Source of the DNA: Candidatus Shapirobacteria bacterium
GTDB taxonomy: Bacteria > Patescibacteriota > Microgenomatia > UBA12405
Direction: 5' to 3'
Length of the DNA: 64,000 nt
Assembly: GCA_041665485.1 (NCBI GenBank)
Contig: JBAYIT010000003.1
Location: forward strand, 67,146-131,145
Part shown: positions 1 through 54,880 of the stretch, in pieces
Position numbering within the stretch: position 1 is the stretch's first letter
Layout: each line of letters starts with the position of its first letter
Position numbers and translations under genes: made by a program
Notes under the pieces: model-generated
Seen by the model: the letters and a program-made list of their open reading frames with translations, nothing else
What the model was told of the DNA's origin: nothing
The model's database searches: none

Positions 1-75
1 CTTATCGATCTTTTGGGAATAATTATCGGTCTCATTCTCTATCAAGTATTTACCCGATTTGACAGATCAAAATAA
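1..75 (+). CDS. 3' fragment of an upstream membrane-protein gene (partial; ends TAA at 73-75)
   Basis: An open frame runs in from the window edge and translates to a hydrophobic tail, LIDLLGIIIGLILYQVFTRFDRSK*. It is too short to assign. Confidence 0.25.
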   Translation, partial: LIDLLGIIIGLILYQVFTRFDRSK

Positions 76-132
76 TCTCCGTAGTATTAACGCAAGACAT
101 ATTTGTTTAACACTATAGGAGGTGAGTATTAA

Positions 133-669
133 ATGAAGAAAATTCTTATTAGTTTTGTTACCGTTATTGCCCTTACTGCTTCGGTTGCCGCCGGAACCAG
201 AGCTATCTTTTCTGGCAACGATAAAGTTTTGGGCAACACCGTCACTACCGCCCGGATTTCTATTGACGCTGAAACCATCGTCAATAAACCGTTAAATATT
301 ACCGGTTTACTTCCCGGCCAAAGCGGATCCCCGGGAACCGTCGATCTCGTCAACGATGGCGACGCCCCCCAAATCCAATACATGTACGTCGAAAATGTTG
401 CCGGTACTCTCTGTCCGGCCCTTGACCTGACAATTGGCTATAGCGTCTCTAGTCCGGGTGTTTTTAGTCATACCTTTGGAACCTGGAAATTGGCGGATAT
501 AACCGGACCAGCTAATCGTCAGGGTGTTGGTGAAACAGTTCCGGTTTCTGCCGGTAGTAACACTCGCCTAGTTCAACAGGCCTCTTTGGCCTCCTCTGTC
601 AGCGACCCAAGCTTAATGGGTGCCACCTGCACCTGGGATGAGGTTTTTGTCGGCGAGCAGGTTCAATAA
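133..669 (+). CDS. TasA/camelysin-like secreted protein with SipW-cognate class signal peptide
   Basis: A strong SD (AGGAGGTGA) lies 5 nt upstream. The N-terminus, MKKILISFVTVIALTASVAAGTRAIFSGNDKV, matches the SipW-cognate signal consensus (KK..hydrophobic..GT.A.FSD). The gene sits directly upstream of a SipW-type peptidase. Confidence 0.6.
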   Translation: MKKILISFVTVIALTASVAAGTRAIFSGNDKVLGNTVTTARISIDAETIVNKPLNITGLLPGQSGSPGTVDLVNDGDAPQIQYMYVENVAGTLCPALDLTIGYSVSSPGVFSHTFGTWKLADITGPANRQGVGETVPVSAGSNTRLVQQASLASSVSDPSLMGATCTWDEVFVGEQVQ

Positions 670-735
670 CTACTTGTCGGCCTAAGAGTTGCTCAAGCCC
701 CTCACGGTTTGTGCAACTTAGTAGGTTAGACAAGT

Positions 736-1272
736 ATGAAAAATCTATATCTAGTTGTCGTTTTTTGTTTGATTGCTATTGCCAGTCTTTCGGCCATGTC
801 GGTTTTAGGTCTGCCCCAAAATCTCCGGGCTTTTGTTGTTCTTTCTGGCTCGATGGCGCCCAGTCTCAAAACTGGCAGTCTTATTTTTGTCAAACCATCT
901 TCTGAATACAAAGTTGGTGATATTGTTACTTTTAAAGCCGGCTCCGATGCCGATATTAAAAACCCTGCCAACACCGTCACTCATCGTGTTATTGACATTA
1001 AATTCAAAGATAACCAAATTTCTTACCTCACCAAGGGTGATGCCAACACTACCCCAGACCTTGACCCTCGTCCGGCCGGCCACGTTCTTGGTCGGGTCAT
1101 TTTGTCTATTCCCTATATCGGTTATCCGGTAGGCTACGCTAAAACTCAACAAGGTTTTATTCTTCTTGTTGTTATCCCCGCCACTCTTATTGTTTACAGC
1201 GAGCTTATTAATATCCAGAAATCAGTCGCTAAACTAATTAAAAACAAAAAGAAACATGGCCAGAAAACTTAA
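736..1272 (+). CDS. sipW: Signal peptidase I, archaeal/SipW type (S26 family)
   Basis: There is an N-terminal TM segment, then LSGSMAPSL (catalytic Ser box), GDIVTF, THRVI and TKGDAN motifs characteristic of SipW/Sec11-type peptidases. Confidence 0.8.
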   Translation: MKNLYLVVVFCLIAIASLSAMSVLGLPQNLRAFVVLSGSMAPSLKTGSLIFVKPSSEYKVGDIVTFKAGSDADIKNPANTVTHRVIDIKFKDNQISYLTKGDANTTPDLDPRPAGHVLGRVILSIPYIGYPVGYAKTQQGFILLVVIPATLIVYSELINIQKSVAKLIKNKKKHGQKT

Positions 1273-3397
1273 TCGAATTCTGGTTATTTTAGTTGTTGTT
1301 TGTTTTCACTTTCTCCCATCTACTAATGCCTATTTTATCGGTCAAACCCAAGTCACGACCAATTCGGTCTCCTCTGGTTGCTGGCTGCCCCCCGCCACCC
1401 CTGATCCGATTTCTCCTTCTGATAATTCATTTGTTGGCCAAGGGGCTTCGTGGTTGGCCGACCCCTATTTTGATTGGAGTAATTCCATTAGCCTTTGTCC
1501 CCAAGCCTTTCAAATTAGCTATCAATACGAGTCTTACTCCGACTCCGATTTACAAACCCTTCTTTTCCACTCCACTCTCTTGTCAGATTCCCAAATTCCT
1601 GCCCCCCAAACTTCCGATGGTGTTTATTATTGGCGTGTTCTCGCTTGCGATAATTTAGGTAGCTGTTCTCCTTGGTCGTCTGTCCAAAAATTAACCATCG
1701 ACACTTCTGCCCCCAGTTCCGAAATTACCGATCTTCCAAGCTCTTCTTCGAGTTCCAATTTTATTATTAATTACCTAGCCACCGGCGACAATCTCGATTA
1801 TGTCACTCTCTGCTATTCTTGGAATTTAACTCCTTGGATCTGTTCACCCGGGTTTCAAGACCATCCCCATTCTCCCGGCTCTTTTGACTTTACTTCCCCG
1901 AAAGGTGATGGCACTTATCATTTTGCCACTCTTGCCCATGATCTTGCCGGCAACGGCGAAAACAAAAATTTATCTGCCGATCCATTAGCTATTCTTTCTT
2001 TTCCCTCCACGGTTGTCGACACTAAGTCACCCACCACTAACCTCAATCAATCTTCTTTTTCCGATGATCACTGGACTGGCCAAAACTTAGCCATCAATAC
2101 TTGGCAAATCGATCCTTTATCTACTGGCGATCATTTTATCGGTTCTACCTCTGTCGAAATTGGTTTTTCCGGGGCGCCTTTGAGTGAAGATGCTCTCGAC
2201 GCCGTCTACCAAATCTTTTCTCTACCTCAAAACATTTCTTCCCACCTTTCCTTTTGGTTTCGGGGGCAAAGCCAAGACACGGTTGATTTTGACCAATTTC
2301 AGGTTCAAATTCGTCGCCCCGACGACTACTTACTGGAATATATTTTAGCCACTGGCAACAAAGAACTGCCCGATAGCGATACCTGGCTAGGCGGTGATTC
2401 CGATTGGCGCTGGTTAAGCCACCCTCTACTGTCTTATGCCGGCCAAACTATTAAAATTTGGTTTGGCCTCACCAATCGCGATTCAGAGCCTAATGCCCGC
2501 ACTTGGGTCGAGCTTAAAGATGTTGTCGTTTCCACTCTCGACCCTCGCCTTTCTGGTACCGATCCGGTTACCATCGACACTCACGATACTGGCACTGGTG
2601 TTGGGGATACAACCGCTCCATTCTCCACCACTGTCGGCGAAAATAATTTAAATATCGGCGCCACTGATAACGCCGGTAATTCCGAAACCCCTAATTCTTC
2701 CTCAATTGTTGTTTTGCCACCCCTAGTTCTTAATCAAATAAGTTTTAATCCCTCAAATCAATTTATCGAGCTTTATAACAACGGCTCGGAAAATATTGAT
2801 CTTTCTGGTTGGTATATTTCTCAAGTTGGTCAAACCCTGTCTATTGGTTCAACCATCATCTCTTCTAAATCGTCCCTTAAAATAGAAAATATCGATACTA
2901 GTCTATTTGATTTTACCGATACCTCCGGCACGGTTGACTTAATTTCTCCCCTGACGACTAAGGTTGATTCCACTACTTATTTTTCCGCCGGCCATGCCGG
3001 TGAAGTCTGGCAACGCCTCCCCGATGGTATTGGTAACTGGGGGCTTTACTACGAAGATGTTTCCGGCAACATTGGTTTCCGTTTGAATGTCAACCGCATT
3101 ACTCTAACTATCGCCAATATCCCCTCCGATTTTGGCGCCAATCCAGCCGACCGTCTTGATTACAAAATTACTTATACGAAAACTGTCGATGGTACATCAT
3201 TAGGTCAGCAGATTGCTGGTTCCATTTCTATTGGCACGATCGTTAATCATCGCGCCGATCGTGATTTTTATCTTGGCACTTGTAGTAGTGGTGGGGCTTG
3301 CACCCCCGACTCCGGTTTAGGTGCCAACTTTGTTCTTTCTCTTACTGGCCAAATCGGCTCGGAATCAGTTAATATCAACCAAGTCTTTTCTCCATGA
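1256..3397 (+). CDS. Large (713 aa) secreted protein with SipW-cognate-like N-terminus; Ser/Thr/Pro-rich, no recognisable catalytic motif
   Basis: The N-terminus, ...FLPSTNAYFIGQTQVTTNSVSSG, resembles the TasA-family signal (AYFSD.E..N.F.AG). The ORF is long and low-complexity, and its start overlaps the sipW stop by 17 nt, which suggests an operon. Confidence 0.55.
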   Translation: MARKLNRILVILVVVCFHFLPSTNAYFIGQTQVTTNSVSSGCWLPPATPDPISPSDNSFVGQGASWLADPYFDWSNSISLCPQAFQISYQYESYSDSDLQTLLFHSTLLSDSQIPAPQTSDGVYYWRVLACDNLGSCSPWSSVQKLTIDTSAPSSEITDLPSSSSSSNFIINYLATGDNLDYVTLCYSWNLTPWICSPGFQDHPHSPGSFDFTSPKGDGTYHFATLAHDLAGNGENKNLSADPLAILSFPSTVVDTKSPTTNLNQSSFSDDHWTGQNLAINTWQIDPLSTGDHFIGSTSVEIGFSGAPLSEDALDAVYQIFSLPQNISSHLSFWFRGQSQDTVDFDQFQVQIRRPDDYLLEYILATGNKELPDSDTWLGGDSDWRWLSHPLLSYAGQTIKIWFGLTNRDSEPNARTWVELKDVVVSTLDPRLSGTDPVTIDTHDTGTGVGDTTAPFSTTVGENNLNIGATDNAGNSETPNSSSIVVLPPLVLNQISFNPSNQFIELYNNGSENIDLSGWYISQVGQTLSIGSTIISSKSSLKIENIDTSLFDFTDTSGTVDLISPLTTKVDSTTYFSAGHAGEVWQRLPDGIGNWGLYYEDVSGNIGFRLNVNRITLTIANIPSDFGANPADRLDYKITYTKTVDGTSLGQQIAGSISIGTIVNHRADRDFYLGTCSSGGACTPDSGLGANFVLSLTGQIGSESVNINQVFSP

Positions 3398-4599
3398 AAA
3401 CTAAATTAATTTTTCTAGTTTCTAGTATCTTGTTACTAGTTTCTAGTTTCCCCGCCTTGGCGGGAAACAACATCACCATCACTTGCTCCTCCGCCGATAC
3501 CTGCACCAATTCCTCCTCACTTCCAATTTTTGACGAAACCAATATCGCCCCCGGTTATATTGTTTCTCCCGCTCCCATCTTAACTGTTATCAATCAACGT
3601 CAAAACGATGAATGTAATCTAACTTTTTCTGCCGGTAACCTGGCCGGCTCTTCCGACTTATTGTCAAAAATTAGTTTAAGCATTACCAGTCTTGGTAATG
3701 TTGATTATGCCGGTAATATTTCCAGTCTTCTTGATGGAGAATCTCGATCCTTAGGTATTATTCCCCCATCTTCCGACCGTCAATATGTCTGGACTACTAG
3801 TTTTGATCAAGATGCCGGCAACGATCTTAAAAATACCTCTGCCAAATTTGACCTAGATTTTAATTTCAGTTGCGATTTACCTCCCACTCCGACTCCAACT
3901 CCAATCGCAACCTCAACGCCAGTACCAACATCTAAGATCCAGGATCCAGGATCTAATAATTCCGGTTCTGTTCTCGGCGTCGCCTCCGCCCCCAGTTGTA
4001 ACGACACCGCCCCCAAAGGCGCCCCCATTTTATCCGGCATTATCGCTGGAGTAAATAGTGCCACTCTTACCTGGCTTCCCGCCCCTGCTCCGGTTAGTTA
4101 CTATTTAATTGCTTACGGCACTTCGCCCGGCAAATACCTTTACGGCAATCCCAATGTTGGTGGCCCGGGCACCACTAGCTACACGGTCACCAATCTTTCC
4201 GCCAACACCACTTATTATTTCGTTGTCCGGGCCGGCAATGGCTGTGCTCCTGGCCCATTTTCCGCAGAGCTTTCCTCCACCCCCGGCGGCGTAGTTCTTC
4301 CCGCCAGTCAGATTCCCCCCGGCTTTCAGCCCGGCGTTTTAGGTGAAACGACTGAACCTACTCCCACCATCACTCCACCCACCGGAGAAGTTATCGGTGT
4401 CAATACCAGTTGTCAACAAAACATAATTCCATTTATCATCAGCCTAATTATCTTTATTATCTCCTCCTTTCTTTATTTCAAACTCCGTCTAAAATTAGTC
4501 TTATCTATCTTAATTATTTCAATAATTTTATCAATAGTCTTTTTCCCAAATTGTTTGTGGTATTTCTACATTTCAAATTTCAAATTGATTAAAAATTAA
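3394..4599 (+). CDS. Secreted cell-surface protein with fibronectin type III-like domain, Pro/Thr linker and C-terminal TM anchor
   Basis: It has a signal peptide (MKTKLIFLVSSILLLVSSFPALA). A PTPTPTP linker precedes an FN3-like segment (ATLTWLPAPAPVSYYLIAYGTSPG...TTYYFVVRAGN). The C-terminus is hydrophobic (IIPFIISLIIFIISSFLYF). Confidence 0.55.
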   Translation: MKTKLIFLVSSILLLVSSFPALAGNNITITCSSADTCTNSSSLPIFDETNIAPGYIVSPAPILTVINQRQNDECNLTFSAGNLAGSSDLLSKISLSITSLGNVDYAGNISSLLDGESRSLGIIPPSSDRQYVWTTSFDQDAGNDLKNTSAKFDLDFNFSCDLPPTPTPTPIATSTPVPTSKIQDPGSNNSGSVLGVASAPSCNDTAPKGAPILSGIIAGVNSATLTWLPAPAPVSYYLIAYGTSPGKYLYGNPNVGGPGTTSYTVTNLSANTTYYFVVRAGNGCAPGPFSAELSSTPGGVVLPASQIPPGFQPGVLGETTEPTPTITPPTGEVIGVNTSCQQNIIPFIISLIIFIISSFLYFKLRLKLVLSILIISIILSIVFFPNCLWYFYISNFKLIKN

Positions 4600-4625: not shown

Positions 4626-5465
4626 ATGACTCGTCTCTGGCACCTGCTTTTCCTGCCACATCCCAAGAATAACCACAAGGCTTTTTTAATTCAACCAGGT
4701 TTTCTTGGCCTTTTTATCGCCCTCTATCTTCTCAACCAATCTTTTATTCGTACTTTTACCATGCTTCGCCCTGGCGTTTTGGGCTATTCCTCCGAAATTA
4801 CCGCCGCCAAAGTTTTAACTCTCACTAACGCTGAAAGGCAACGGGAAAATCTACCCATTCTGGTTTACAACTCAAAACTTGAAGCCTCAGCCACCAAAAA
4901 AGCCCAAGACATGTTTGCCAAAAACTATTGGGCCCACTCTGCCCCCGACGGCACCTCTCCTTGGAGTTTTTTTAAAGATGCCGATTATCAATATACTGTT
5001 GCCGGTGAAAATCTGGCCCGCGATTTTTACGACACTGAAACTATGTTTCAAGCCTGGATGAACTCTAAAACCCATCGCGACAACATTGTCGACAAACGTT
5101 ATCAGGAAATCGGTATCGGTGTTGTCAATGGCATTCTCGGTGGTGTTAAAACCACCCTAGTTGTCCAACATTTTGGTACTCCGGTTGTGGCTGTTGCCAC
5201 TCTCCCCCCAGGCCAGCAAGTTCTTCCCGCCACCGTTGAATCAGGTCCGGCGGTTAAGCCTCAATTTACTCTCAACCCCCTCCTTATCAGTAAGGTTTTT
5301 GGCGGAGCCATCTTTATGATCATCATGGTTGTTTTGGTTGTTGATGCTTTCATCACTCTCAAAAACAAAACCCACCGTCTAAGTGGCTCGGCCACCTCTC
5401 ATCTTGGCTTTATTGCCATTATTTTTCTCCTCTTATTATTTAGCCGTCAAGGCACCATCTTTTAA
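4626..5465 (+). CDS. CAP/SCP (YkwD-like) domain protein, membrane-anchored
   Basis: The CAP-domain signature is present (NAERQ...YWAHSAPDG...GENLAR...AWMNSKTHRDNIV...EIGIGV). Hydrophobic segments lie at both termini. Confidence 0.7.
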   Translation: MTRLWHLLFLPHPKNNHKAFLIQPGFLGLFIALYLLNQSFIRTFTMLRPGVLGYSSEITAAKVLTLTNAERQRENLPILVYNSKLEASATKKAQDMFAKNYWAHSAPDGTSPWSFFKDADYQYTVAGENLARDFYDTETMFQAWMNSKTHRDNIVDKRYQEIGIGVVNGILGGVKTTLVVQHFGTPVVAVATLPPGQQVLPATVESGPAVKPQFTLNPLLISKVFGGAIFMIIMVVLVVDAFITLKNKTHRLSGSATSHLGFIAIIFLLLLFSRQGTIF

Positions 5466-5467
5466 CC

Positions 5468-5734
5468 ATGCATTTTGTCTTTCATTATCTTCGTCAAAAA
5501 CCGCTCGATTTTGTTCTCCTTTTCCTCTTTTTTGCCATTTGTCTGGTCTCTTTTTTTGTTTTTGGAATCGATGGCCACTCCCGTCGTTCTATCGTTTACA
5601 TTACTGCCGGTGGCTATTTCCTCTGGAGCCTGGCCTATCACTATCGCCGTGGCGATCTCCATCCCTCCATCATCATCGAATACCTCGTCATGGCCTTACT
5701 CGGCACCATCGTCCTCTCCACCACCCTTTTTTAG
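5468..5734 (+). CDS. Small integral membrane protein (hypothetical)
   Basis: The 88 aa product has two or three predicted TM helices and no conserved motif. Two ORFs overlap it in other frames. Confidence 0.35.
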   Translation: MHFVFHYLRQKPLDFVLLFLFFAICLVSFFVFGIDGHSRRSIVYITAGGYFLWSLAYHYRRGDLHPSIIIEYLVMALLGTIVLSTTLF

Positions 5735-8114: not shown

Positions 8115-8891
8115 CTAGAGTAGCTTATCCACACTTGCCTTCACCGATTCTAGTGGTAAGGCTCCGGGGATAAGTTCCACCGCTTTGCCATTAACCACAA
8201 TTATCGTTCCCGGAGTTCCATTAATTCCGGCTTCAGCACCTTTGTTCATCTGGTCTTTGACTTTTTGGGTAAATTTACCGGCATCGAGGCAAGTTTTAAC
8301 TTTAGCCGTATTCACCCCAATCTGTCCGGCCATTTCCACCATTTGTTCCTTGGTAAAGCTGGTTCCAGTTGATGCTGTTTTGCTATACACCATGTCGCTA
8401 TAACTCCAGAACTTGTCCTTACCACCAACATCATTAACGCATTCAGCCGCTTCGGCTTCCATTTGAGCATTGGCATGGAAGGGGAGTGGGTAGTGGCGGT
8501 ACACCCAACCGATTTTGTTGCCATACTCTTTCAACACTTGAATCATTGTTTCATGAAATCGTTTACAGAATGGGCACTCATAGTCCGAATATTCCACCAG
8601 CATTACCTTAGCATTTTTATTGCCTCGAACATAATCATTGCCGTCAATTTTGGGCATTGCCACCAAATTCGGTGTCGGTTCTGGTTGAGCCGCCGCCGGA
8701 TCATTTTGGCTGGGAACTACCGCCGCCGGAGCACTGGCTACCCCCTTCTCTAGATTCTGGATTTTAACAAAGGTATAGGCTGAAAAAACAGCCGTAAATA
8801 AGGTCAAAACCAAAAAAGGTGTCATCCACCCATTGTTGTTATTACAACATTCTTTTTTGTCTATCATTTTTGTAAAAATTATTAAAAGCAA
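8115..8891 (-). CDS. DsbA-family thiol:disulfide oxidoreductase (BdbD-like), membrane-anchored
   Basis: A CPFC active site sits in the thioredoxin-fold context (VEYSDYECPFCKRFH). An N-terminal TM helix is present. The likely true start is an internal Met (MIDKK or MTPF). Confidence 0.8.
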   Translation of the reverse strand: MLLIIFTKMIDKKECCNNNNGWMTPFLVLTLFTAVFSAYTFVKIQNLEKGVASAPAAVVPSQNDPAAAQPEPTPNLVAMPKIDGNDYVRGNKNAKVMLVEYSDYECPFCKRFHETMIQVLKEYGNKIGWVYRHYPLPFHANAQMEAEAAECVNDVGGKDKFWSYSDMVYSKTASTGTSFTKEQMVEMAGQIGVNTAKVKTCLDAGKFTQKVKDQMNKGAEAGINGTPGTIIVVNGKAVELIPGALPLESVKASVDKLL

Positions 8892-18568: not shown

Positions 18569-18636
18569 CATTCTCTTCATAACAGTACTTATTTATCTAA
18601 TCTGTTGCCCGACAAGGATTCGGACCTCAATTCCTA

Positions 18637-18711
18637 CGTTCAGAGCGTAGTGGCCTACCATTAGCCGATCGGGCATTAATTCAAGATCCTAGGCAGTATT
18701 TTATCTTATCC
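18637..18711 (+). repeat. Intergenic direct repeat, copy A (ACGTTCAGAGCGTAGTGG...CCGATCGGGCATTAATTCAAGATCCTAGGCAGTATTTTATCTTATCC)
   Basis: Copy B at 18763..18876 is near-identical. The pair was read directly from the sequence. Confidence 0.7.
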
Positions 18712-44413: not shown

Positions 44414-45682
44414 TTATTGATCTATCTTTATAGTATCTTCTTCCCCTTCAGGTAATTCCAGCATATCAATTTTTGGTAAGGCGGTACCAATCAATCCCTG
44501 AAGATCACCATAAATACCGGCGGTGTTGAGATAAACCTTTTGCATATTTTTTTCTTCTTTTTCCCACTTTTTGGTGAAATAGGCTTTTTCGATATTAAGT
44601 TCTTTTTGTCGACTAGTAAAATATTCCAACCAAACTTCAATTCTTTGTTTGAAGTCGTTACTAGTCAAATAGTTGTAAACAATCTCGGACTTTTTACCCC
44701 TGTCTTCACCTGACGTTCTGGCATTGCTTAGGTCAATCAATTGACTACGGAGGATAGTTGTTAGTGCGATAACTGAATTAAAGTTGACCACCATGACACC
44801 ATCGCGAAGGCCGAATGTTTTTATATCTTCAGGCATAACAATAGAAACGATAACCGCCAAATCAGCTTTTTCCCTTCTTTTGTCATCTTTTAGTTTTGGT
44901 ATCCAAGTATCAGTCCAATTTTTGGTTCTTTTTGATTCCCACACAATCGTCCCACAAACTTTGCCATAGTTATTTTTAACTCTTTGGATAACGTCGGCGC
45001 CATTATCACCCTTGGGAACTGGAAGAATATCATCATAAATAAATGCTTGACGCAATAATTCCTCAAGTTCCACTTCAAGTATTTCACCCTGTGATTGTTG
45101 TGAACCTTGTTGAAGTTTTCTGGTTAAACCGTCAATCGCCTTTTCGGCATCTGATAATTTTTTGTCTTTTTCCGCTATTTGTAACTTGTACTTGTCACCC
45201 AATTGACCCGTAACTTCTTGAGATACTTTTTGGGTAATCTCCTGTTCTTTTTTCATCATATCCAACTCAAAGGCTTTCTTTTCGTCCTCAAAACTCTGTT
45301 TTTCTTTCATCAGTTCAACCTGATCTTTTCGCAACTCCTCCAATTTAGTATCTTTTTGCTTTAACACTTCTTTTAAACCATCGACTTCGGCAGATGTTTC
45401 CTTGACCGCTTCTTCTTTAGCTCTCTTTTCGATTTCAACTTTTTCTGTTTTTAGTTTTTCTTCGACTTGACGATTGACGACGCCAATCAAATCAAGTTTG
45501 GCTGCTTCAATCTTTTGAGCTTTTTCTGTCAGCGCCTTTTCTTTTTCGCTGATTTCCAAATCCTTCTGTTTTTGCTTGGCTTCGTATTCTAGGCGATATT
45601 TTTCTTCTAGTTGATGGCTCAACGCTTCATCCGGTAAAAATTCAAAACTACATTGTGGACATTTTATTTTTTGATTTGTCAT
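44414..45682 (-). CDS. DUF2130-like protein: N-terminal zinc ribbon (CPQC), long coiled coil, C-terminal PD-(D/E)xK-like domain
   Basis: The N-terminus has KCPQCSFEF. A coiled coil rich in E/K/Q spans roughly residues 30-200. The C-terminus, ...PKGDNGADVIQRV...GTIVWESKRTKNW, carries D...E.K. Confidence 0.5.
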   Translation of the reverse strand: MTNQKIKCPQCSFEFLPDEALSHQLEEKYRLEYEAKQKQKDLEISEKEKALTEKAQKIEAAKLDLIGVVNRQVEEKLKTEKVEIEKRAKEEAVKETSAEVDGLKEVLKQKDTKLEELRKDQVELMKEKQSFEDEKKAFELDMMKKEQEITQKVSQEVTGQLGDKYKLQIAEKDKKLSDAEKAIDGLTRKLQQGSQQSQGEILEVELEELLRQAFIYDDILPVPKGDNGADVIQRVKNNYGKVCGTIVWESKRTKNWTDTWIPKLKDDKRREKADLAVIVSIVMPEDIKTFGLRDGVMVVNFNSVIALTTILRSQLIDLSNARTSGEDRGKKSEIVYNYLTSNDFKQRIEVWLEYFTSRQKELNIEKAYFTKKWEKEEKNMQKVYLNTAGIYGDLQGLIGTALPKIDMLELPEGEEDTIKIDQ

Positions 45683-48222
45683 TTTTTTAATAATTTTATT
45701 GTACCTTTTAATGCATTAAACTTTTCAATTTCAGCCTTTAAATTTGACGATTCAGGAGTATTACCTACGGTGTCATCCGAATGTAAATGACCTTCAATGT
45801 ATTCTGATAAACGACTATATGTTTCACATATTTCTATTGTAATTGCTGGAGTTACAATCACATTTTTTAAACTGTCTATACTTATCCTTTCTTCCCATCT
45901 TTTTACAACTTTATTAAATAATTCATTTACTATCAGATGTTCGTAACATGTTCTCAAAAGACTAAAACCGTCTTTAATAATCTTTTCATTTTCTGATCCA
46001 TTCACAGTAAGGGATTGGTTGTACAGTACCGACACTTCATCACTGTTTTTGTAACGACTTTCGTCCCCTGGCCCGTCATTATTAGCAATAATGCCAGGGA
46101 TACCATTTATTTTTTTGATCCAATGAAAAGAAGTATCTATTTTTCGCAACTCCGCTTTTTTCCGCAAAAAGAAGAGAAAAATTGGATCGTGAGTAAAGAT
46201 AATTACTTGTTTTAACTCGCTTAGGTCAGTTAACCTTGTCGCGATTTTTTCTTTTCTTTCTAAGTCTAGGGAGGTAACAGGATCGTCGAAAATCATCCCA
46301 TAATTATTTGGACATAATGTATTTTCTGTAACGAAGTCTGCGATTGAGGTGACTTTTTGTTCACCTTCGCTTAATACCTTATCCGGTTGCCTGCCACAAA
46401 TTTGAAGTTGCCGGTATGATTTACCTTTATCTCCTGATTGATTAATAGCTATACCAAATCCGGCGTCGAGTAGAGTACATTCTGCATTAAATATGTCTTT
46501 ATATTTTTGATCTACCAATTTTCTATATAGTTCAGAATGTTTTAGAGTTATCTTTGTTGTGTCTAATTCTTTGATTCCGTTTCTAAAGTTGTTACTAATT
46601 CTAAGATTTCTAAGATGTAATTTAATCTGTTGAAGTAAATCAGAATAAATTTGTTTATTTTTTAGGGTCTCCAGTGTTGTATTGATATTCTCGATTTCTT
46701 TTGTTTTGTCTGCCTTTGTTAGCTTGTCAATTTCAGTTTGAATCTTGATTACAGACTTATTCAAGTTATAAAATCTTTTATAAAGTCTAGAAGTTTTAGT
46801 CCAATCACCCACGTTAATATTGGCTAATAATTGGATTTTTAGTCGACTTAACAATTTTGAATATTTTATTAGTTTTACCAGAATAGCTTTATCATTATCT
46901 TCCAACCATTTGTAAACTACTGTACCTTCAGACACCAATACAGTATCCAGTGCTTGAAGTTCTAGTTCCAAATTTTTTAATATGGTCTCATCATATTTCA
47001 ACTTAGTTTCGAGTGCATTTGATAATAATTCCCAATATCTTTCAACTAACTTTACCGACTCAGGTGAAAGTGGCTGCCAACAAAATATACATGGGTCTCC
47101 AACTTTTGGATATACATAGCCATTGCGCTTGATAAAATCTTGACCAGCGACAAGGAAATTTTTCCATTTTTCATTACCTACACCATCAATGTCTTTATTC
47201 TTAAAATCTTGCACCCCTCTTTTCAACAAAAGTGATTTATTATTTTTAATTGACCTTATGAGAACTTTAATATTATTTCTTACCTGTAAATTCAAGTTTA
47301 TTTTTGCCTGAATAAGTATTTGCTGGGCTTGGAGAATACCTTTTTTTACCACCTCTAACTCATCAAGTTTTCTTTTTATATCTAGTGCTACCAAAATTTG
47401 CTTTTCTTTCTCTAGTGACTTTGCTTTGTCTTTTTCAATATTTGTAATTTCATATTTTTTCAGTTCTTCATCGGTAGTTGTCGCCTTTATTCCGATAATA
47501 AATGTTTTTACCTCTGAATCACCAGAAAAATGTATGGAGAAGTCGATTTCGTCGTTATACTTTTTAAGATTTTCTTCGGCTAGTACTTTTATTTCACTAA
47601 AAACTGTCGCTAATTTTTCGAAATAATCTAGTCCCTGTGGTTTGAACGTTAATTGATTTTTGTCGTCAAGATGAACGCGAACGCTTTTGTTATCGAAGAC
47701 AGAAAAGCAGTCAAATCTGCCGTCTGCTTTATCGTTTGGAAATTCCAAGACGAATTCTTCACTATCTTCACTAGTAAATGTAAATTTTCCGTGGGGTTCA
47801 ATTGAAGTATCTTTAAATACGTTTGGCAAGATTTCCATATCCCCTCGGGAAATAAATGAGTTATTCAGTAATCTGATGTACCCAGTCTTGCCTGATCCGT
47901 TGTTTCCGTAAATTACAGTTAAATTCTTTGAAAATTCAATTTTTTGATTTGTAGCCAAGGCATTGGCAACTACTTCCTCAAGTCTTTTCAAATAAACACG
48001 ACTATTGCCTTTATCTGTTGCAACCTTGTCGATCAGAACTGCTTCTGGTTTAGATTCTGCTGGTTTTGATAACTTATGCTCCTCAAGAAAGTATTTGAAT
48101 ATTACCGCAAGTTCAATGTTTTTATCGTTTAAGATTAATCGAGACGTATATTGCACCCAATATGGTTGTTGCTTCACCCACGCAACAATTTCCTGATTTA
48201 CATCCAGTTCGCTGTCAATCAC
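45679..48222 (-). CDS. AAA_13/Rad50-SbcC-like ABC ATPase with coiled-coil insert and CxxC zinc-hook; RloC/PrrC-like candidate
   Basis: Walker A is VIYGNNGSGKTGYIRLL. The middle has about 450 aa of coiled coil with CIFC at its centre. The signature is LSEGEQKV and Walker B/D-loop is MIFDDPVTSLD. A C-terminal domain of about 170 aa carries R-x3-E (LLRTCYEH) and His residues. A 4-nt overlap joins it to the downstream gene. Confidence 0.6.
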   Translation of the reverse strand: MIDSELDVNQEIVAWVKQQPYWVQYTSRLILNDKNIELAVIFKYFLEEHKLSKPAESKPEAVLIDKVATDKGNSRVYLKRLEEVVANALATNQKIEFSKNLTVIYGNNGSGKTGYIRLLNNSFISRGDMEILPNVFKDTSIEPHGKFTFTSEDSEEFVLEFPNDKADGRFDCFSVFDNKSVRVHLDDKNQLTFKPQGLDYFEKLATVFSEIKVLAEENLKKYNDEIDFSIHFSGDSEVKTFIIGIKATTTDEELKKYEITNIEKDKAKSLEKEKQILVALDIKRKLDELEVVKKGILQAQQILIQAKINLNLQVRNNIKVLIRSIKNNKSLLLKRGVQDFKNKDIDGVGNEKWKNFLVAGQDFIKRNGYVYPKVGDPCIFCWQPLSPESVKLVERYWELLSNALETKLKYDETILKNLELELQALDTVLVSEGTVVYKWLEDNDKAILVKLIKYSKLLSRLKIQLLANINVGDWTKTSRLYKRFYNLNKSVIKIQTEIDKLTKADKTKEIENINTTLETLKNKQIYSDLLQQIKLHLRNLRISNNFRNGIKELDTTKITLKHSELYRKLVDQKYKDIFNAECTLLDAGFGIAINQSGDKGKSYRQLQICGRQPDKVLSEGEQKVTSIADFVTENTLCPNNYGMIFDDPVTSLDLERKEKIATRLTDLSELKQVIIFTHDPIFLFFLRKKAELRKIDTSFHWIKKINGIPGIIANNDGPGDESRYKNSDEVSVLYNQSLTVNGSENEKIIKDGFSLLRTCYEHLIVNELFNKVVKRWEERISIDSLKNVIVTPAITIEICETYSRLSEYIEGHLHSDDTVGNTPESSNLKAEIEKFNALKGTIKLLKK

Positions 48223-48807: not shown

Positions 48808-49902
48808 ATGCAAAAAAGAAAGGGGGGTAAACCCAGAATATTATCTTTATTTTCCGGGTGCGGAGGGCTGGACTTAGGATTCGTACAAGAAGACTTTAGG
48901 ATTGTTTGGGCAAATGATTTTTATCATCCTGCTTGCGAAACATATAAGAACAACTTTGGTGACCACATTTTCGAAAGAGATATTACCGAAGTCGATTTTA
49001 AAAATCTTCCGGACTGCGATATTATCACGGGAGGGTTTCCTTGTCAGGATTTTTCAATGATTTGGAAGCGGGGAGGTATCGGCACCGATAGGGGCAATTT
49101 ATATAAATATTTTGTTAAAGCAGTATCCGCAAAGTTACCCAAAATATTTGTTGCAGAGAATGTTAAAGGTCTCCTCACCGCGAATAAAGGAATGGCGATA
49201 AAACAAATCGTTGAAGATTTTCAAAAGATCGATCATTCGGGTTATAGAATTTATATTAATCTATATAACTTTGCAGAATACGGAGTACCTCAATTAAGAG
49301 AAAGGGTCATTATTGTGGGTGTAAGGAGCGACATCCCCTTTAAGTTTCGTAAACCTGCTCCAATCCGTAGTCAAAATAATTACGTGACCTCTAAAGAAGC
49401 CCTTAAAGACGTTGAAAAAGTTGTATATAACAATGAGCACATAAATATAATGGAAAGGACTAAAAAAATAATAAGTTTAATTCCGCCGGGAGGAAATTTT
49501 ACCGATATACCAAAAGACAGCCCTTATTACGTAAAGGGAATGATAAGCCACGTATATAGGAGACTCCATCCGGACAAGCCCTCGACAACGATAATTGCAG
49601 GCGGTGGTGGCGGTACATGGGGTTATCATTTCAATGAACCTAGACCATTAACAAACAGAGAAAGAGCTCGATTATTCGGATATCCGGACGATTTCATATT
49701 CACAGGTTCTGTCGCTGAAGTTAGAAAGCAAATTGGTAACTCAGTTCCGCCTCCGGGGGCCAGAGCAGTAGCGAAAGAAATAAAAAAGCTCTTTAAAGAA
49801 ACGTTTACGCCGGTAAATGTGAACAATTTAAGACCATTATCCGGGGATGCGTTAAAATACATTAGTTATGATGAATCGGGAGAGCTTAAACTAAAAAAAT
49901 AA
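48808..49902 (+). CDS. DNA (cytosine-5)-methyltransferase
   Basis: Motif I is LFSGCGGLDLGF, motif IV is GGFPCQDFS, motif VI is ENVKGLL and the motif IX/X region is RERARLFGYPDDFIF. Confidence 0.9.
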   Translation: MQKRKGGKPRILSLFSGCGGLDLGFVQEDFRIVWANDFYHPACETYKNNFGDHIFERDITEVDFKNLPDCDIITGGFPCQDFSMIWKRGGIGTDRGNLYKYFVKAVSAKLPKIFVAENVKGLLTANKGMAIKQIVEDFQKIDHSGYRIYINLYNFAEYGVPQLRERVIIVGVRSDIPFKFRKPAPIRSQNNYVTSKEALKDVEKVVYNNEHINIMERTKKIISLIPPGGNFTDIPKDSPYYVKGMISHVYRRLHPDKPSTTIIAGGGGGTWGYHFNEPRPLTNRERARLFGYPDDFIFTGSVAEVRKQIGNSVPPPGARAVAKEIKKLFKETFTPVNVNNLRPLSGDALKYISYDESGELKLKK

Positions 49903-54396: not shown

Positions 54397-54880
54397 GCAA
54401 GCCTCCTTGTTTGCCTAACTTAAAACTTAAACTATTTTTTTGATTGTTGATGACATGTAAAAACTTTACCGATTCAACTTGGGCTAATTCGTTTTCTTTT
54501 CTGTCAACCGGCCTGGCAGAATTTACAGTCACTAATTTCCTTTTCTTTTCCATAATTGGTATCTCAATATCTCGAAGATAATTATCGTTCTTATTAAAAA
54601 TAAAATACATCGGTCGAACATTGAATCGCCATAAAATTAATAGCCAACTTAAAACCACCCTCCCCTTAATTCGGAGAGACAGAACTAAACACACAAACAA
54701 AACGATGACTATCAATGGCAGTTTGTACCAAGCCAATTTCATTACCGGTGGCACAAAAGCAAAAAGAACCGTTGTCCAAAAAATCGGGATCATCAGAATA
54801 AATATCTGCGTTATATTTAAGTTCCCGGCAATCTTATCTTCAACTGTGGTTATTTGAGCTGGAATTACCGTTGTCCTCAT
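54368..54880 (-). CDS. T4SS small membrane protein (VirB3/PrgI-like, tentative)
   Basis: Two or three TM helices are predicted. The gene sits immediately upstream of VirB4 on the same strand, which is the VirB3 position. Confidence 0.35.
   Translation of the reverse strand: MRTTVIPAQITTVEDKIAGNLNITQIFILMIPIFWTTVLFAFVPPVMKLAWYKLPLIVIVLFVCLVLSLRIKGRVVLSWLLILWRFNVRPMYFIFNKNDNYLRDIEIPIMEKKRKLVTVNSARPVDRKENELAQVESVKFLHVINNQKNSLSFKLGKQGGLHVALKQIKK

What the first reader, a model, noticed from the sequence alone, without database searches (positions are those of the whole stretch)
133..4599. SipW-TasA-type fibre operon with an unusually large SipW-cognate substrate
A SipW-type (archaeal-like) signal peptidase is flanked by two proteins whose N-termini match the SipW-cognate signal class. 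One is a 178 aa TasA/camelysin-sized protein. The other is a 713 aa Ser/Thr/Pro-rich protein. An FN3 surface protein and a CAP-domain protein follow. SipW/TasA systems are known from Bacillus biofilm fibres. A giant SipW substrate in a small-genome organism suggests a novel surface-filament or adhesin system.
Basis: partly seen in the sequence, partly recalled or inferred. Interest (0 to 1): 0.55.

Follow-up and report, generated by a model that had tools for sequence, protein, structure and literature searches.

The report
TasA-type fibre operon in CPR bacterium
An ultra-small Candidatus Shapirobacteria bacterium carries a conserved gene cassette for a Bacillus-TasA-like surface fibre with its own signal peptidase, and the large 713 aa neighbour is most likely an adhesin that plugs its N-terminal strand into that fibre, not a fibre subunit itself.

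Summary
The genes are present as described. The peptidase is an ER/archaeal (SipW-type) signal peptidase I, passing TIGR02228 with a Ser39-His83-Asp102 active site. The 178 aa protein is a divergent TasA/camelysin homologue. It misses TIGR04088 and PF12389 itself, but 51 of 77 relatives hit TIGR04088 and 37 of 77 hit PF12389. Its family profile and its confident AF2 model both find TasA first.

The 713 aa protein also misses TIGR04088. Even so, it is the only other window ORF matching the family's N-terminal profile, and it matches in register. The rest of it is FN3/Ig-like and LTD modules plus an uncharacterised C-terminal domain.

Across 11 cassettes, the large protein's post-cleavage strand matches its own genome's subunit strand (3 of 500,000 permutations). 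The peptidase is repeatedly fused in-frame to such proteins.

Best reading: a TasA/TapA/SipW-type donor-strand fibre. The 713 aa protein acts as a TapA-like strand donor carrying adhesin modules. The "FN3 protein" is a membrane-anchored TasA-like domain without the cognate strand.

Large accessory proteins have precedent (C. perfringens BsaC), and TasA homologues were already noted in Patescibacteria. This is a new variant of a known kind. Fibre assembly itself is inferred, not shown.

The parts
1..75 (+). 3' end of a VanZ-like membrane protein gene, cut by the window edge. On the parent contig it is preceded by a 275 aa LTD-domain surface protein and gltX.
   Evidence: L001 coordinate = window coordinate + 9265. 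The LTD-VanZ pair precedes the TasA-like gene again in L012-L015, and LTD precedes it in L009 and L018.
59..87 (+). Promoter-like site (TTGACA-17-TAGTAT), followed by an AGGAGG ribosome-binding site upstream of the subunit gene. Weak evidence only.
   Evidence: Promoter-like sites are not enriched in the region (13 found, 9.8 +/- 3.2 expected).
133..669 (+). 178 aa TasA/camelysin-superfamily protein, the presumed polymerising fibre subunit. Signal peptide is residues 1-24 (nt 133-204). The predicted cleavage GTRA|IFSG is placed by alignment to TasA TWA|AF. The conserved post-cleavage strand is residues 25-41 (nt 205-255). The beta-sandwich body is residues 42-178.
   Evidence: 846 representatives at E<=1e-3; 51/77 hit TIGR04088; 37/77 hit PF12389; profile vs PDB: TasA 5of1 E 6e-5; AF2 pLDDT 93; Foldseek top hit TasA fibre 8aur, E 2.2e-5, TMq 0.60.
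671..736 (+). Stable RNA hairpin filling the subunit-peptidase spacer. Its 3' arm covers the peptidase ribosome-binding site and reaches the AUG. Presumed to set subunit-to-accessory stoichiometry by acting as an mRNA stabiliser, attenuator or RBS occluder.
   Evidence: dG -34.3 kcal/mol, z -7.3, 0/200 shuffles; comparable hairpins in the same spacer of L004, L006, L007, L009, L011 and L013m1 (z -3.6 to -7.1), with no sequence conservation.
736..1272 (+). 178 aa ER/archaeal-type (SipW-like) signal peptidase I. It has N- and C-terminal TM segments and a Lys-rich cytoplasmic tail. Catalytic residues are Ser39 (nt 850-852), His83 (nt 982-984) and Asp102 (nt 1039-1041).
   Evidence: TIGR02228 113.6 bits vs 51.85; the Bacillus SipW equivalog scores 111 against a cutoff of 190. 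(the only PDB relatives are SEC11C/SEC11A, E 3e-8, with SGSM, HRV and GDxN aligned). (TM segments 6-24 and 140-158).
1256..3397 (+). 713 aa large accessory protein. Signal peptide is residues 1-25 (nt 1256-1330), with predicted cleavage STNA|YFIG. The cognate-type strand YFIGQTQVTTNSVSSGC is residues 26-42 (nt 1331-1381). Two confident FN3/Ig-like domains span residues 41-247, and a further beta domain spans 315-425. Big_13 is at 436-485 and LTD at 490-575. The conserved novel C-terminal domain is residues 603-713 (nt 3062-3394).
   Evidence: AF2: residues 20-40 disordered; confident beta domains; Foldseek hits only tandem FN3/adhesin-type arrays; C-terminal domain has no Pfam or PDB relatives and hhalign vs TasA family gives 0.2%.
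3394..4599 (+). 401 aa membrane-anchored protein. It has an ordinary AxA signal (ALA|GNN, residues 1-23) and a TasA-like beta-sandwich domain (residues 24-161, nt 3463-3876). That domain lacks the A-x-F-S-D...GNT strand signature and has a conserved Cys pair. A Pro/Thr linker follows, then FN3 (residues 220-294, nt 4051-4275) and two C-terminal TM segments (residues 344-386, nt 4423-4551).
   Evidence: FN3. (subunit profile positions 47-177 match residues 37-157, 25.3 bits). (206 homologues, mostly Microgenomates). (hhalign 98.8%, E 7e-17). (TM segments).
4626..5465 (+). 279 aa membrane protein with a CAP/YkwD-like domain. It is conserved in synteny with the cassette. Its role is unknown.
   Evidence: PF00188, E 3e-19. 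Synteny in L010-L018.
5468..5734 (+). 88 aa two-TM protein. It is always the last gene of the cassette. Its role is unknown.
   Evidence: Orthologues directly after the CAP gene in L010, L011, L013, L014, L016, L017 and L018.

Best explanation
The region is the core of a conserved Microgenomates (CPR) cassette for a TasA/TapA/SipW-type surface fibre that assembles by donor-strand exchange.

Shown here:
- The 178 aa protein belongs to the TasA/camelysin superfamily. It has a Sec-type signal, a conserved 17-residue post-cleavage segment, and a beta-sandwich body.
- The adjacent enzyme is an ER/archaeal-type Ser-His signal peptidase, as SipW is.
- The 713 aa protein shares only the signal-plus-strand segment with the subunit. 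Otherwise it is a string of FN3/Ig-like, LTD and novel C-terminal beta domains.
- The 401 aa protein is a TasA-like body without that strand signature, followed by FN3 and a C-terminal membrane anchor.

Inferred:
1. The dedicated peptidase cleaves the subunit after Ala24 and the large protein after Ala25. This exposes N-terminal strands equivalent to TasA residues 28-38.
2. Subunits polymerise by inserting this strand into the next subunit's sandwich.
3. The 713 aa protein has a strand but no acceptor fold. It acts like TapA (or archaeal AbpB): it donates the first strand, so it sits at one end of the fibre and displays its adhesin-like modules there.
4. More tentatively, the membrane-anchored 401 aa protein, which has an acceptor-type body but no cognate strand, takes the last free strand and tethers the fibre to the cell.
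5. The hairpin after the subunit gene keeps the subunit in excess over the accessory proteins.
For: Subunit identity:
- 51 of 77 relatives hit TIGR04088 and 37 of 77 hit PF12389.
- The family profile's top two PDB hits are both TasA (5of1 and 8aur).
- The AF2 model (pLDDT 93) has the TasA fibre as its top Foldseek hit, followed by other donor-strand filaments: ABP, PapA, FimG, TLP-1, Saci_0406 and CanA.

Peptidase.

Linkage of the large protein to the peptidase and subunit:
- It is the only other N-terminal-profile hit among 220 window ORFs, and hhalign matches residues 1-42.
- Its start codon overlaps the peptidase stop by 17 nt.
- The gene order subunit, peptidase, large protein, TasA-body/FN3/TM, CAP, small TM recurs in independent contigs: L009-L018 for this order, L004-L008 for the subunit-peptidase core.
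- The peptidase is fused in-frame to a second TM segment, a cognate strand and a substrate. This occurs in five different architectures from different lineages: P0010/L017 871 aa, L011 753 aa, L013/L014 363 aa, L004 332 aa and L007 324 aa.
- The post-cleavage 17-mer of the large or fused protein matches the subunit of its own genome. The BLOSUM sum is 360 against 201.5 +/- 31.6, reached in 3 of 500,000 permutations. For the first 11 residues alone it is 0 of 100,000.

Support from minimal forms: in L004 and L007 the fused protein is only a strand plus a disordered tail. This parallels TapA, where residues 44-57 suffice (PMC10151520).

Mechanistic precedent:
- The TasA donor strand is the first 11 mature residues (PMC9674648).
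- TapA can only start a filament.
- AbpB was proposed as an initiator plus adhesin (PMC9245690).

401 aa protein: hhalign 98.8% to the subunit family.

Hairpin.
Against: - No experiment or multimer model shows polymerisation, cleavage by this peptidase, or strand insertion.
- The window's own 178 aa and 713 aa proteins do not hit TIGR04088 or PF12389. No large-protein relative reaches the 19-bit cutoff.
- The window's own strand pair is weakly matched: 5 of 17 identities, rank 3 of 11. L018 does not match at all.
- Strand matching within a genome could reflect shared peptidase recognition rather than a shared acceptor groove.
- The 713 aa AF2 model is low-confidence over residues 248-314 and 427-611.
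- The N-terminus of the 401 aa domain aligns ambiguously. It may be self-complemented and disulfide-locked, so its anchor or terminator role is speculative.
- The roles of the LTD, VanZ, CAP and small TM proteins are unexplained.
Confidence: 0.6

Rival explanations
1. The peptidase processes the 713 aa protein, but the protein is an independent secreted or surface adhesin. Its N-terminal similarity to the subunit reflects only the peptidase's substrate-recognition determinant. It does not insert a strand into the fibre.
For: TIGR04088 is defined as a signal-peptide class, not as a strand. Matching of N-termini within a genome is equally expected if both co-evolve with one peptidase. C. perfringens BsaC, a large protein in a sipW operon, is secreted as a monomer with unknown function (PMC11580942). 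The window's own strand pair is only weakly similar.
Against: In TasA the conserved residues just after the cleavage site are the donor strand itself. The matching signal is strongest in the first 11 mature residues but also extends to positions 12-17, well beyond a usual peptidase recognition site. In L004 and L007 the fused product is only a strand plus a disordered acidic or Ser/Thr tail. That makes little sense as an adhesin, but it fits a TapA-like strand donor.
Confidence: 0.22
2. The 713 aa protein is a generic cell-surface adhesin with an ordinary Sec signal cleaved by the housekeeping signal peptidase. Its position next to the SipW-type gene is incidental.
For: It does not hit TIGR04088, and its relatives stay below the cutoff. 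The T-N-A|Y site would also suit a standard signal peptidase I. Its domains are generic FN3/Ig/LTD modules.
Against: It gives a unique, in-register hit to the subunit N-terminal profile. Its position directly after the peptidase is conserved, with overlapping codons. In-frame peptidase::substrate fusions have arisen repeatedly. Strand covariation within genomes is significant.
Confidence: 0.08
3. The TasA-like proteins here do not form fibres. They act as monomeric or oligomeric cell-envelope proteins, either camelysin-like or S-layer-like. The cluster is then a general surface-protein island of a wall-less or thin-walled CPR cell.
For: Polymerisation is not shown. Monomeric TasA is stable, and camelysin was first described as a protease. 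The 401 aa protein carries a TasA-like domain as an anchored ectodomain, which shows the fold is used outside free subunits. The cassette also holds LTD, CAP and VanZ envelope proteins.
Against: The closest structural matches are donor-strand filaments, with the TasA fibre form first. The post-cleavage strand is the most conserved part of the family: A24, N35, P61, G62 and N74 are each at least 90% conserved. In the monomer model that strand is not packed against the body. A hairpin follows the subunit gene, as in pilus operons. There is also a TapA-like strand-only partner.
Confidence: 0.1

Closest known systems
Bacillus subtilis tapA-sipW-tasA biofilm fibre operon
   Same: It pairs a dedicated ER-type signal peptidase with a TasA-fold subunit whose first mature residues form a donor strand. 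It also has an accessory protein that shares only the N-terminal signal and strand and has unrelated, complete beta domains, as TapA does. The accessory and peptidase genes overlap. Basis.
   Different: The gene order is subunit, peptidase, accessory, not accessory, peptidase, subunit. The subunit is much shorter (178 vs 261 aa) and fails the PF12389, TIGR04088 and TasA equivalog models. The accessory protein is 713 aa with FN3/Ig/LTD modules and a novel C-terminal domain, and it has no similarity to TapA (TIGR04087 not hit). The cassette adds a membrane-anchored TasA-like/FN3 protein and LTD, VanZ, CAP and small TM genes. The host is a CPR bacterium.
Clostridium perfringens sipW-bsaA-bsaB-bsaC operon
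   Same: A SipW gene sits with TasA-like subunit genes and a large (about 70 kDa) secreted accessory protein with a protein-interaction domain. The fibre is anchored to the membrane rather than the wall (PMC11580942).
   Different: BsaC carries a vWA domain, not FN3/LTD. BsaA is locked by an N35-K74-E56 isopeptide. Here Asn35 is 95% conserved, but the candidate Lys and Glu are each only 66% conserved, so the triad is not supported. Whether BsaC has a matching strand was not examined.
Archaeal bundling pili (AbpA/AbpB) of Pyrobaculum calidifontis
   Same: A TasA-like donor-strand subunit is paired with a larger multi-beta-domain partner. That partner was proposed to donate the first strand and act as a tip adhesin (PMC9245690). 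7ueg is the second-best fold match of the 178 aa model.
   Different: No dedicated signal peptidase is encoded in the ABP operon, and the proteins show no detectable sequence relationship to those here.
Chaperone-usher pili (Fim/Pap)
   Same: The principle is a polar fibre built by donor-strand exchange, with specialised end subunits that lack either the strand or the ability to accept one. A hairpin after the major-subunit gene is also shared. PapA and FimG appear among the fold matches.
   Different: The resemblance is analogy only. There is no chaperone, no usher and no outer membrane. The polarity of the specialised ends is reversed: here the adhesin-like protein has a strand but no acceptor fold.

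Membership tests
ER/archaeal-type signal peptidase I (TIGR02228; the type to which SipW belongs) | Score above the curated cutoff of the family model | tested here: met
   113.6 bits against a cutoff of 51.85.
ER/archaeal-type signal peptidase I (TIGR02228; the type to which SipW belongs) | Ser-His(-Asp) catalytic residues instead of the bacterial Ser-Lys dyad | tested here: met
   Alignment to SEC11C/SEC11A conserves SGSM (Ser39), tHRV (His83) and kGDaN (Asp102). The bacterial-type model TIGR02227 scores only 26.6 bits against a cutoff of 47.
Bacillus SipW equivalog (NF046067) | Score above the equivalog cutoff (190 bits) | tested here: not met
   111.4 bits. It is SipW-like, not an orthologue of Bacillus SipW.
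TasA/camelysin family (Pfam PF12389 Peptidase_M73), for the 178 aa protein | The protein itself passes the Pfam gathering threshold | tested here: not met
   No hit even at E<=10. The TasA control scores 129 bits.
TasA/camelysin family (Pfam PF12389 Peptidase_M73), for the 178 aa protein | Homology to TasA detectable at family (profile) level | tested here: met
   37 of 77 full-length relatives hit PF12389, best E 4.6e-13. The family profile's top two PDB hits are both TasA (5of1 E 6.1e-5, 8aur E 8.8e-5).
TasA/camelysin family (Pfam PF12389 Peptidase_M73), for the 178 aa protein | TasA-type jelly-roll/beta-sandwich fold with a free N-terminal strand | tested here: met
   AF2 gives pLDDT 93.1, with residues 21-43 not packed against the body. 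Foldseek's top hit is 8aur (TasA fibre), E 2.2e-5, TMq 0.60.
TasA/camelysin family (Pfam PF12389 Peptidase_M73), for the 178 aa protein | Polymerisation by donor-strand exchange | not testable with these tools
   No multimer prediction or experiment is available here.
SipW-cognate signal class (TIGR04088), for the 178 aa protein | N-terminus scores at least 19 bits | tested here: not met
   The window copy does not hit. Orthologues score 28.9, 21.4, 18.9 and 13.8 bits, and three are not detected. 51 of 77 relatives hit at E<=0.01. The window copy has FSGND in place of the usual FSD(T/S)E.
SipW-cognate signal class (TIGR04088), for the 713 aa protein | N-terminus scores at least 19 bits | tested here: not met
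   No hit. Relatives score 16.5, 16.3 and 14.7 bits, and the others are not detected.
SipW-cognate signal class (TIGR04088), for the 713 aa protein | N-terminus related to that of the co-encoded TasA-like protein, with the gene next to a SipW-type peptidase | tested here: met
   The family N-terminal profile gives 16.0 bits, E 8.6e-5, in register and unique in the window. hhalign gives 79%, E 1.6e-5. Also adjacency and overlap, fusions and own-genome matching.
SipW-cognate signal class (TIGR04088), for the 713 aa protein | Actual cleavage by the SipW-type enzyme | not testable with these tools
   This needs protein chemistry with a wild-type and a Ser39Ala peptidase.
TapA (TIGR04087 YqxM_for_SipW), for the 713 aa protein | Sequence membership in the TapA family | tested here: not met
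   No hit. Only the L004 fusion gives a weak 13.5 bits against a cutoff of 80. The claim is functional analogy, not membership.
TasA-like domain, for the N-terminal domain of the 401 aa protein | Profile-profile homology to the subunit family over the whole sandwich | tested here: met
   hhalign gives 98.8%, E 7.4e-17, over 158 columns. hmmsearch gives 25.3 bits, with profile positions 47-177 matching residues 37-157.
TasA-like domain, for the N-terminal domain of the 401 aa protein | Presence of the cognate A-x-F-S-D...GNT strand | tested here: not met
   It has an ordinary ALA|GNN signal. Its N-terminal segment is about 10 residues shorter, with conserved Cys31 and Cys37, and it does not hit TIGR04088. 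Where exactly the deletion falls is ambiguous.

The most novel reading that the evidence does not exclude
The cassette encodes a complete, polar, usher-free pilus of CPR bacteria. A strand-only tip protein (the 713 aa protein, carrying FN3/Ig/LTD modules and the novel C-terminal domain) nucleates a rod of 178 aa TasA-like subunits. The rod grows from the membrane and is ended and tethered by a strand-less, membrane-anchored TasA-like protein (the 401 aa protein). The recurrent peptidase::initiator fusions are self-processing start modules. The fibre would be a main device by which these episymbionts attach to host cells or surfaces.
Probability: 0.25. Interest if true: 0.75.

Novelty: new variant of a known kind. 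Interest (0 to 1): 0.5.

Why it matters
CPR/Patescibacteria are ultra-small bacteria, largely uncultured, and many live attached to host cells. How they attach is poorly understood beyond type IV pili. A conserved TasA-type fibre cassette with an adhesin-like strand donor gives a concrete, testable candidate for a second attachment structure.

The natural peptidase::substrate fusions, and the matching of strands within each genome, are independent genomic evidence for the TapA-type strand-donor mechanism, which has so far been shown only in Bacillus. The strand-less, membrane-anchored TasA-like domain suggests how such fibres could be tethered in a cell without sortase or a thick wall. The conserved C-terminal domain of the large protein is an uncharacterised fold family worth solving.

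Tried and rejected
1. Direct TIGR04088 and PF12389 scans of the window proteins, including the isolated N-termini, found nothing. I did not take this as final because the positive control worked and the orthologues do hit.
2. Whether the 713 aa protein is a beta-rich fibre subunit or contains a TasA body: rejected. The subunit profile and hhalign match only residues 1-42. Foldseek gives only generic FN3/adhesin arrays. The C-terminal domain is unrelated to TasA.
3. Sequence search of the 713 aa protein and its C-terminal domain against the PDB, and of the C-terminal domain against Pfam: nothing meaningful.
4. A BsaA-type intermolecular isopeptide triad: Asn35 is 95% conserved, but the candidate Lys52 and Glu170 are each only 66% conserved. 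Not supported, and geometry could not be tested.
5. P0129, a 3245 aa hit in the profile search that looked like a giant cognate protein, is a false positive caused by 19 weak repeat matches.
The fallback alignment gave a mixed-quality model.
7. The search for related loci with the 77-sequence alignment failed for lack of a conserved stretch. The 7-sequence alignment worked.
8. A search for a housekeeping P-type signal peptidase in the window found none. This says nothing about the rest of the genome.
9. The promoter and terminator scan was not enriched over shuffles, and the terminator-like hits lie inside genes.

Full report
**Origin and anatomy.** The window comes from a 182.8 kb contig of a Candidatus Shapirobacteria bacterium (CPR/Microgenomates). 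Six co-directional genes lie on the + strand:
- 133-669, 178 aa
- 736-1272, 178 aa
- 1256-3397, 713 aa
- 3394-4599, 401 aa
- 4626-5465, 279 aa
- 5468-5734, 88 aa

The junctions are +66, -17, -4, +26 and +2 nt. The parent contig shows that the cluster continues upstream of the window edge: gltX, then a 275 aa LTD-domain surface protein with a Pro/Thr linker and a C-terminal TM segment, then a VanZ-like membrane protein whose last 75 nt open the window.

**The peptidase.** The 736-1272 product passes the archaeal/ER-type signal peptidase I model (TIGR02228, 113.6 bits against 51.85). It does not pass the Bacillus SipW equivalog (111 against 190) or the bacterial-type model. Its only relatives among solved structures are the eukaryotic SEC11A/C catalytic subunits (E 3e-8). 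Ser39 (SGSM), His83 (HRV) and Asp102 (GDxN) are aligned with them. It has an N-terminal and a C-terminal TM segment and a Lys-rich tail. It is therefore SipW-like in type, not an orthologue of SipW.

**The 178 aa protein.** Scanned directly, it hits neither TIGR04088 nor PF12389, even at E<=10. The negative is one of divergence, however:
- Of its seven close orthologues, two pass TIGR04088 (28.9 and 21.4 bits), one is borderline (18.9) and one is weaker (13.8).
- An exhaustive profile search found 846 cluster representatives at E<=1e-3, mostly 175-200 aa.
- Of 77 full-length members, 51 hit TIGR04088, 37 hit PF12389 and 15 partially hit the TasA equivalog.
- The family profile's best two PDB hits are TasA (5of1, 8aur; E about 6e-5 to 9e-5).
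- AlphaFold2 with this alignment gives pLDDT 93.1. The model has a signal helix, an unpacked segment at residues 21-43 and a beta-sandwich.
- Foldseek ranks the TasA fibre structure first (8aur, E 2.2e-5, TMq 0.60). Other donor-strand filaments follow: Pyrobaculum bundling pili, PapA, FimG, TLP-1, the Sulfolobus thread and CanA.

The 178 aa protein is thus a divergent TasA-superfamily member. Wang et al. 2022 had already noted PF12389 homologues in Patescibacteria (PMC9245690).

**The 713 aa protein.** It also fails TIGR04088. Its relatives reach only 14.7-16.5 bits. I built a profile from the first 46 columns of the subunit family and searched all 220 window ORFs of at least 50 aa. It finds the subunit (56 bits) and then only the 713 aa protein, at 16.0 bits and E 8.6e-5, with profile positions 7-40 on residues 8-41. 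The next ORF scores 3 bits. hhalign of the two families matches only residues 1-42 (79%, E 1.6e-5).

By alignment to the TasA cleavage site (TWA|AF), the predicted sites are GTRA|IFSG in the subunit and STNA|YFIG in the large protein. Böhning et al. showed that the TasA donor strand is residues 28-38, the first 11 residues of the mature protein (PMC9674648). The conserved post-cleavage part of this 'signal class' is therefore the strand itself.

Beyond residue 43 the 713 aa protein has no TasA body:
- Pfam finds near-threshold Big_13 and LTD hits.
- AF2 (mean pLDDT 60) gives a disordered segment at residues 20-40 and confident beta-sandwich domains at 41-247. It gives a moderate beta domain at 315-425, a poor region at 427-611 and a confident beta domain at 612-713.
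- Foldseek returns only tandem FN3/Ig arrays of adhesins, glycan-binding proteins, receptors and a phage tail fibre.
- The C-terminal domain (signature Y.I.Y...G...FYLGTCS.G.C) is conserved across the family. It has no Pfam or PDB relatives and is unrelated to TasA.

**Comparative genomics.** Loci retrieved through the subunit (L004-L008; WWE3, Parcubacteria, Saccharibacteria and others) show the subunit-to-peptidase core throughout CPR, except for L005, whose contig ends just after the subunit gene. Loci retrieved through the large protein (L009-L018) show the full cassette: (gltX)-LTD-VanZ-subunit-peptidase-large protein-TasA-body/FN3/TM protein-CAP-small TM, often followed by trmD and a GT2 gene as in the window.

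Three observations tie the large protein to the peptidase and the subunit.
1. **Fusions.** The peptidase is fused in-frame, after its C-terminal TM segment and Lys-rich tail, to a second hydrophobic segment, a cognate-type strand and a substrate. This occurs in five architectures from different lineages:
   - P0010/L017, 871 aa (intact ORF)
   - L011, 753 aa
   - L013/L014, 363 aa (strand, Pro/Thr linker and only the conserved C-terminal domain)
   - L004, 332 aa, and L007, 324 aa (strand plus an acidic or Ser/Thr tail)

   The topology is coherent: the cytoplasmic tail of the enzyme becomes the n-region of the substrate's signal.
2. **Own-genome strand matching.** The 17 residues after the predicted cleavage site of the large or fused protein resemble the same segment of the subunit from their own genome far more than those from other genomes. 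With nine modules the BLOSUM62 sum is 327 against 203.5 +/- 26, reached in 0 of 200,000 permutations. With eleven modules it is 360 against 201.5 +/- 31.6, z 5.0, reached in 3 of 500,000. For the first 11 residues alone it is 0 of 100,000. Comparisons between the two paralogous families should be equally distant in all genome combinations, so this indicates concerted evolution. The window's own pair is weak (5 of 17 identities, rank 3 of 11), and L018 is an outlier.
3. **Minimal forms.** The strand-plus-tail fusions mirror TapA, in which residues 44-57 suffice for function and the rest is dispensable (PMC10151520).

**The 401 aa 'FN3 protein'.** Its first 161 residues are homologous to the subunit family (hhalign 98.8%, E 7e-17; hmmsearch 25.3 bits on profile positions 47-177). 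It has an ordinary ALA|GNN signal. Its N-terminal segment is about 10 residues shorter, lacks the A-x-F-S-D...GNT signature and carries two nearly invariant cysteines. After a Pro/Thr linker come FN3 and two C-terminal TM segments. The family is common in Microgenomates (206 hits). So whether its sandwich can accept a strand is open.

**RNA feature.** The 66-nt spacer after the subunit gene folds into a hairpin at 671-736 (dG -34.3 kcal/mol, z -7.3). It abuts the peptidase AUG and covers its likely ribosome-binding site. Hairpins of similar strength occupy the same spacer in six other loci without sequence conservation. This fits a design in which the major subunit is made in excess over the accessory proteins.

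**Mechanism.**
- Shown: the homologies, domain architectures, synteny, fusions, strand matching and the hairpin.
- Inferred: the peptidase cleaves both cognate precursors. The subunit polymerises by donor-strand exchange. The 713 aa protein has a strand but no acceptor fold, so it donates the first strand like TapA (or as proposed for archaeal AbpB). It therefore sits at one fibre end displaying adhesin-like modules.
- More speculative: the membrane-anchored, strand-less TasA-like protein takes the last strand and tethers the fibre.

The main rival is that the N-terminal similarity serves only peptidase recognition and the large protein is an independent adhesin. The strand-plus-tail fusions and the extent of the matching argue against this, but do not exclude it.

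**Novelty.** TasA/TapA/SipW fibres, TapA strand donation, an archaeal TapA-like adhesin candidate, TasA homologues in Patescibacteria and a 70 kDa accessory protein in a clostridial sipW operon are all published. New here are:
- the conserved CPR cassette and its composition
- the strand-only adhesin-like partner with a novel C-terminal domain
- the repeated natural peptidase::substrate fusions
- the own-genome strand matching
- the strand-less anchored TasA-like domain
- the conserved post-subunit hairpin

I rate it a new variant of a known kind with moderate interest (0.5). It offers a concrete candidate attachment fibre for CPR bacteria.

Noticed in passing
window 671-736; same spacer in L004, L006, L007, L009, L011, L013: A very stable hairpin (dG -34.3 kcal/mol, z -7.3) lies between the subunit stop codon and the peptidase start codon and covers the peptidase ribosome-binding site. 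Structurally analogous hairpins, with no sequence conservation, occur at the same position in other CPR lineages.
   Followed up: yes
window 3062-3394 (residues 603-713 of the 713 aa protein); alignment A7: A conserved C-terminal beta domain of about 110 aa (Y.I.Y...G...FYLGTCS.G.C, with two invariant Cys). It has no Pfam or PDB relatives and is unrelated to TasA. In L013 and L014 it is the only part retained besides the strand.
   Followed up: partly
L017 781-3396; L011 6371-8632; L013 4326-5417; L014 1296-2387; L004 8602-9600; L007 8659-9633: In-frame fusions of the SipW-type peptidase to a second TM segment, a cognate strand and a substrate, in five architectures across CPR lineages. This implies self-processing or cis-processing.
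   Followed up: yes
L012-L015 (e.g. L013 3721-9927): Some genomes carry two tandem modules, each a TasA-like gene followed by its own peptidase paralogue, with up to three TasA-like genes. The first peptidase is the 363 aa fusion.
   Followed up: partly
L001 8191-9340 (upstream of the window); window 1-75: An LTD-domain surface protein (275 aa, Pro/Thr linker, C-terminal TM segment) and a VanZ-like membrane protein precede the subunit gene and are syntenic in several loci. LTD domains recur in three cassette proteins across loci.
   Followed up: partly
window 4626-5734: A CAP/YkwD-like membrane protein and an 88 aa two-TM protein always close the cassette. Their role in it is unexplained.
   Followed up: partly
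window ~36000-64000: GC content falls from about 0.45 to 0.33-0.39 and the GC skew changes. This half encodes a TraG/VirB4-like ATPase (51984-53783, -) and a T4SS pilin-domain protein (54877-56184, -). It also encodes a C5 DNA methylase (48808-49902, +), an SMC-like protein (45679-48222, -) and a DUF2130 protein. It may be the Patescibacteria type IV secretion locus or an integrated element.
   Followed up: partly
window 8115-8891 (-): A DsbA/thioredoxin-like membrane protein is encoded nearby. The cassette's secreted proteins have conserved cysteines: Cys94/Cys166 in the subunit, Cys31/Cys37 and others in the 401 aa protein, and the C-terminal domain Cys pair. Extracellular disulfides may matter.
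   Followed up: no
alignment A2, positions 35, 52, 74, 170 of the 178 aa protein: Asn35 in the strand and Asn74 are each 95% conserved. Lys52 and Glu170 are each 66% conserved. A BsaA-like isopeptide lock is not supported by conservation, and geometry could not be tested.
   Followed up: partly
P0129 (one search hit list): A 3245 aa protein appeared among the subunit-profile hits through 19 weak matches to an internal repeat. It is an unrelated repeat protein and a false positive.
   Followed up: yes
window 18604-18675 (-): A single tRNA-Gln(CTG) is the only RNA gene detected in the window.
   Followed up: no
L004 8602-9600, residues 175-232: The strand region of the WWE3 peptidase fusion gives a weak hit to the TapA model TIGR04087 (13.5 bits, far below the cutoff of 80). 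This is a curiosity consistent with a TapA-like N-terminus.
   Followed up: no
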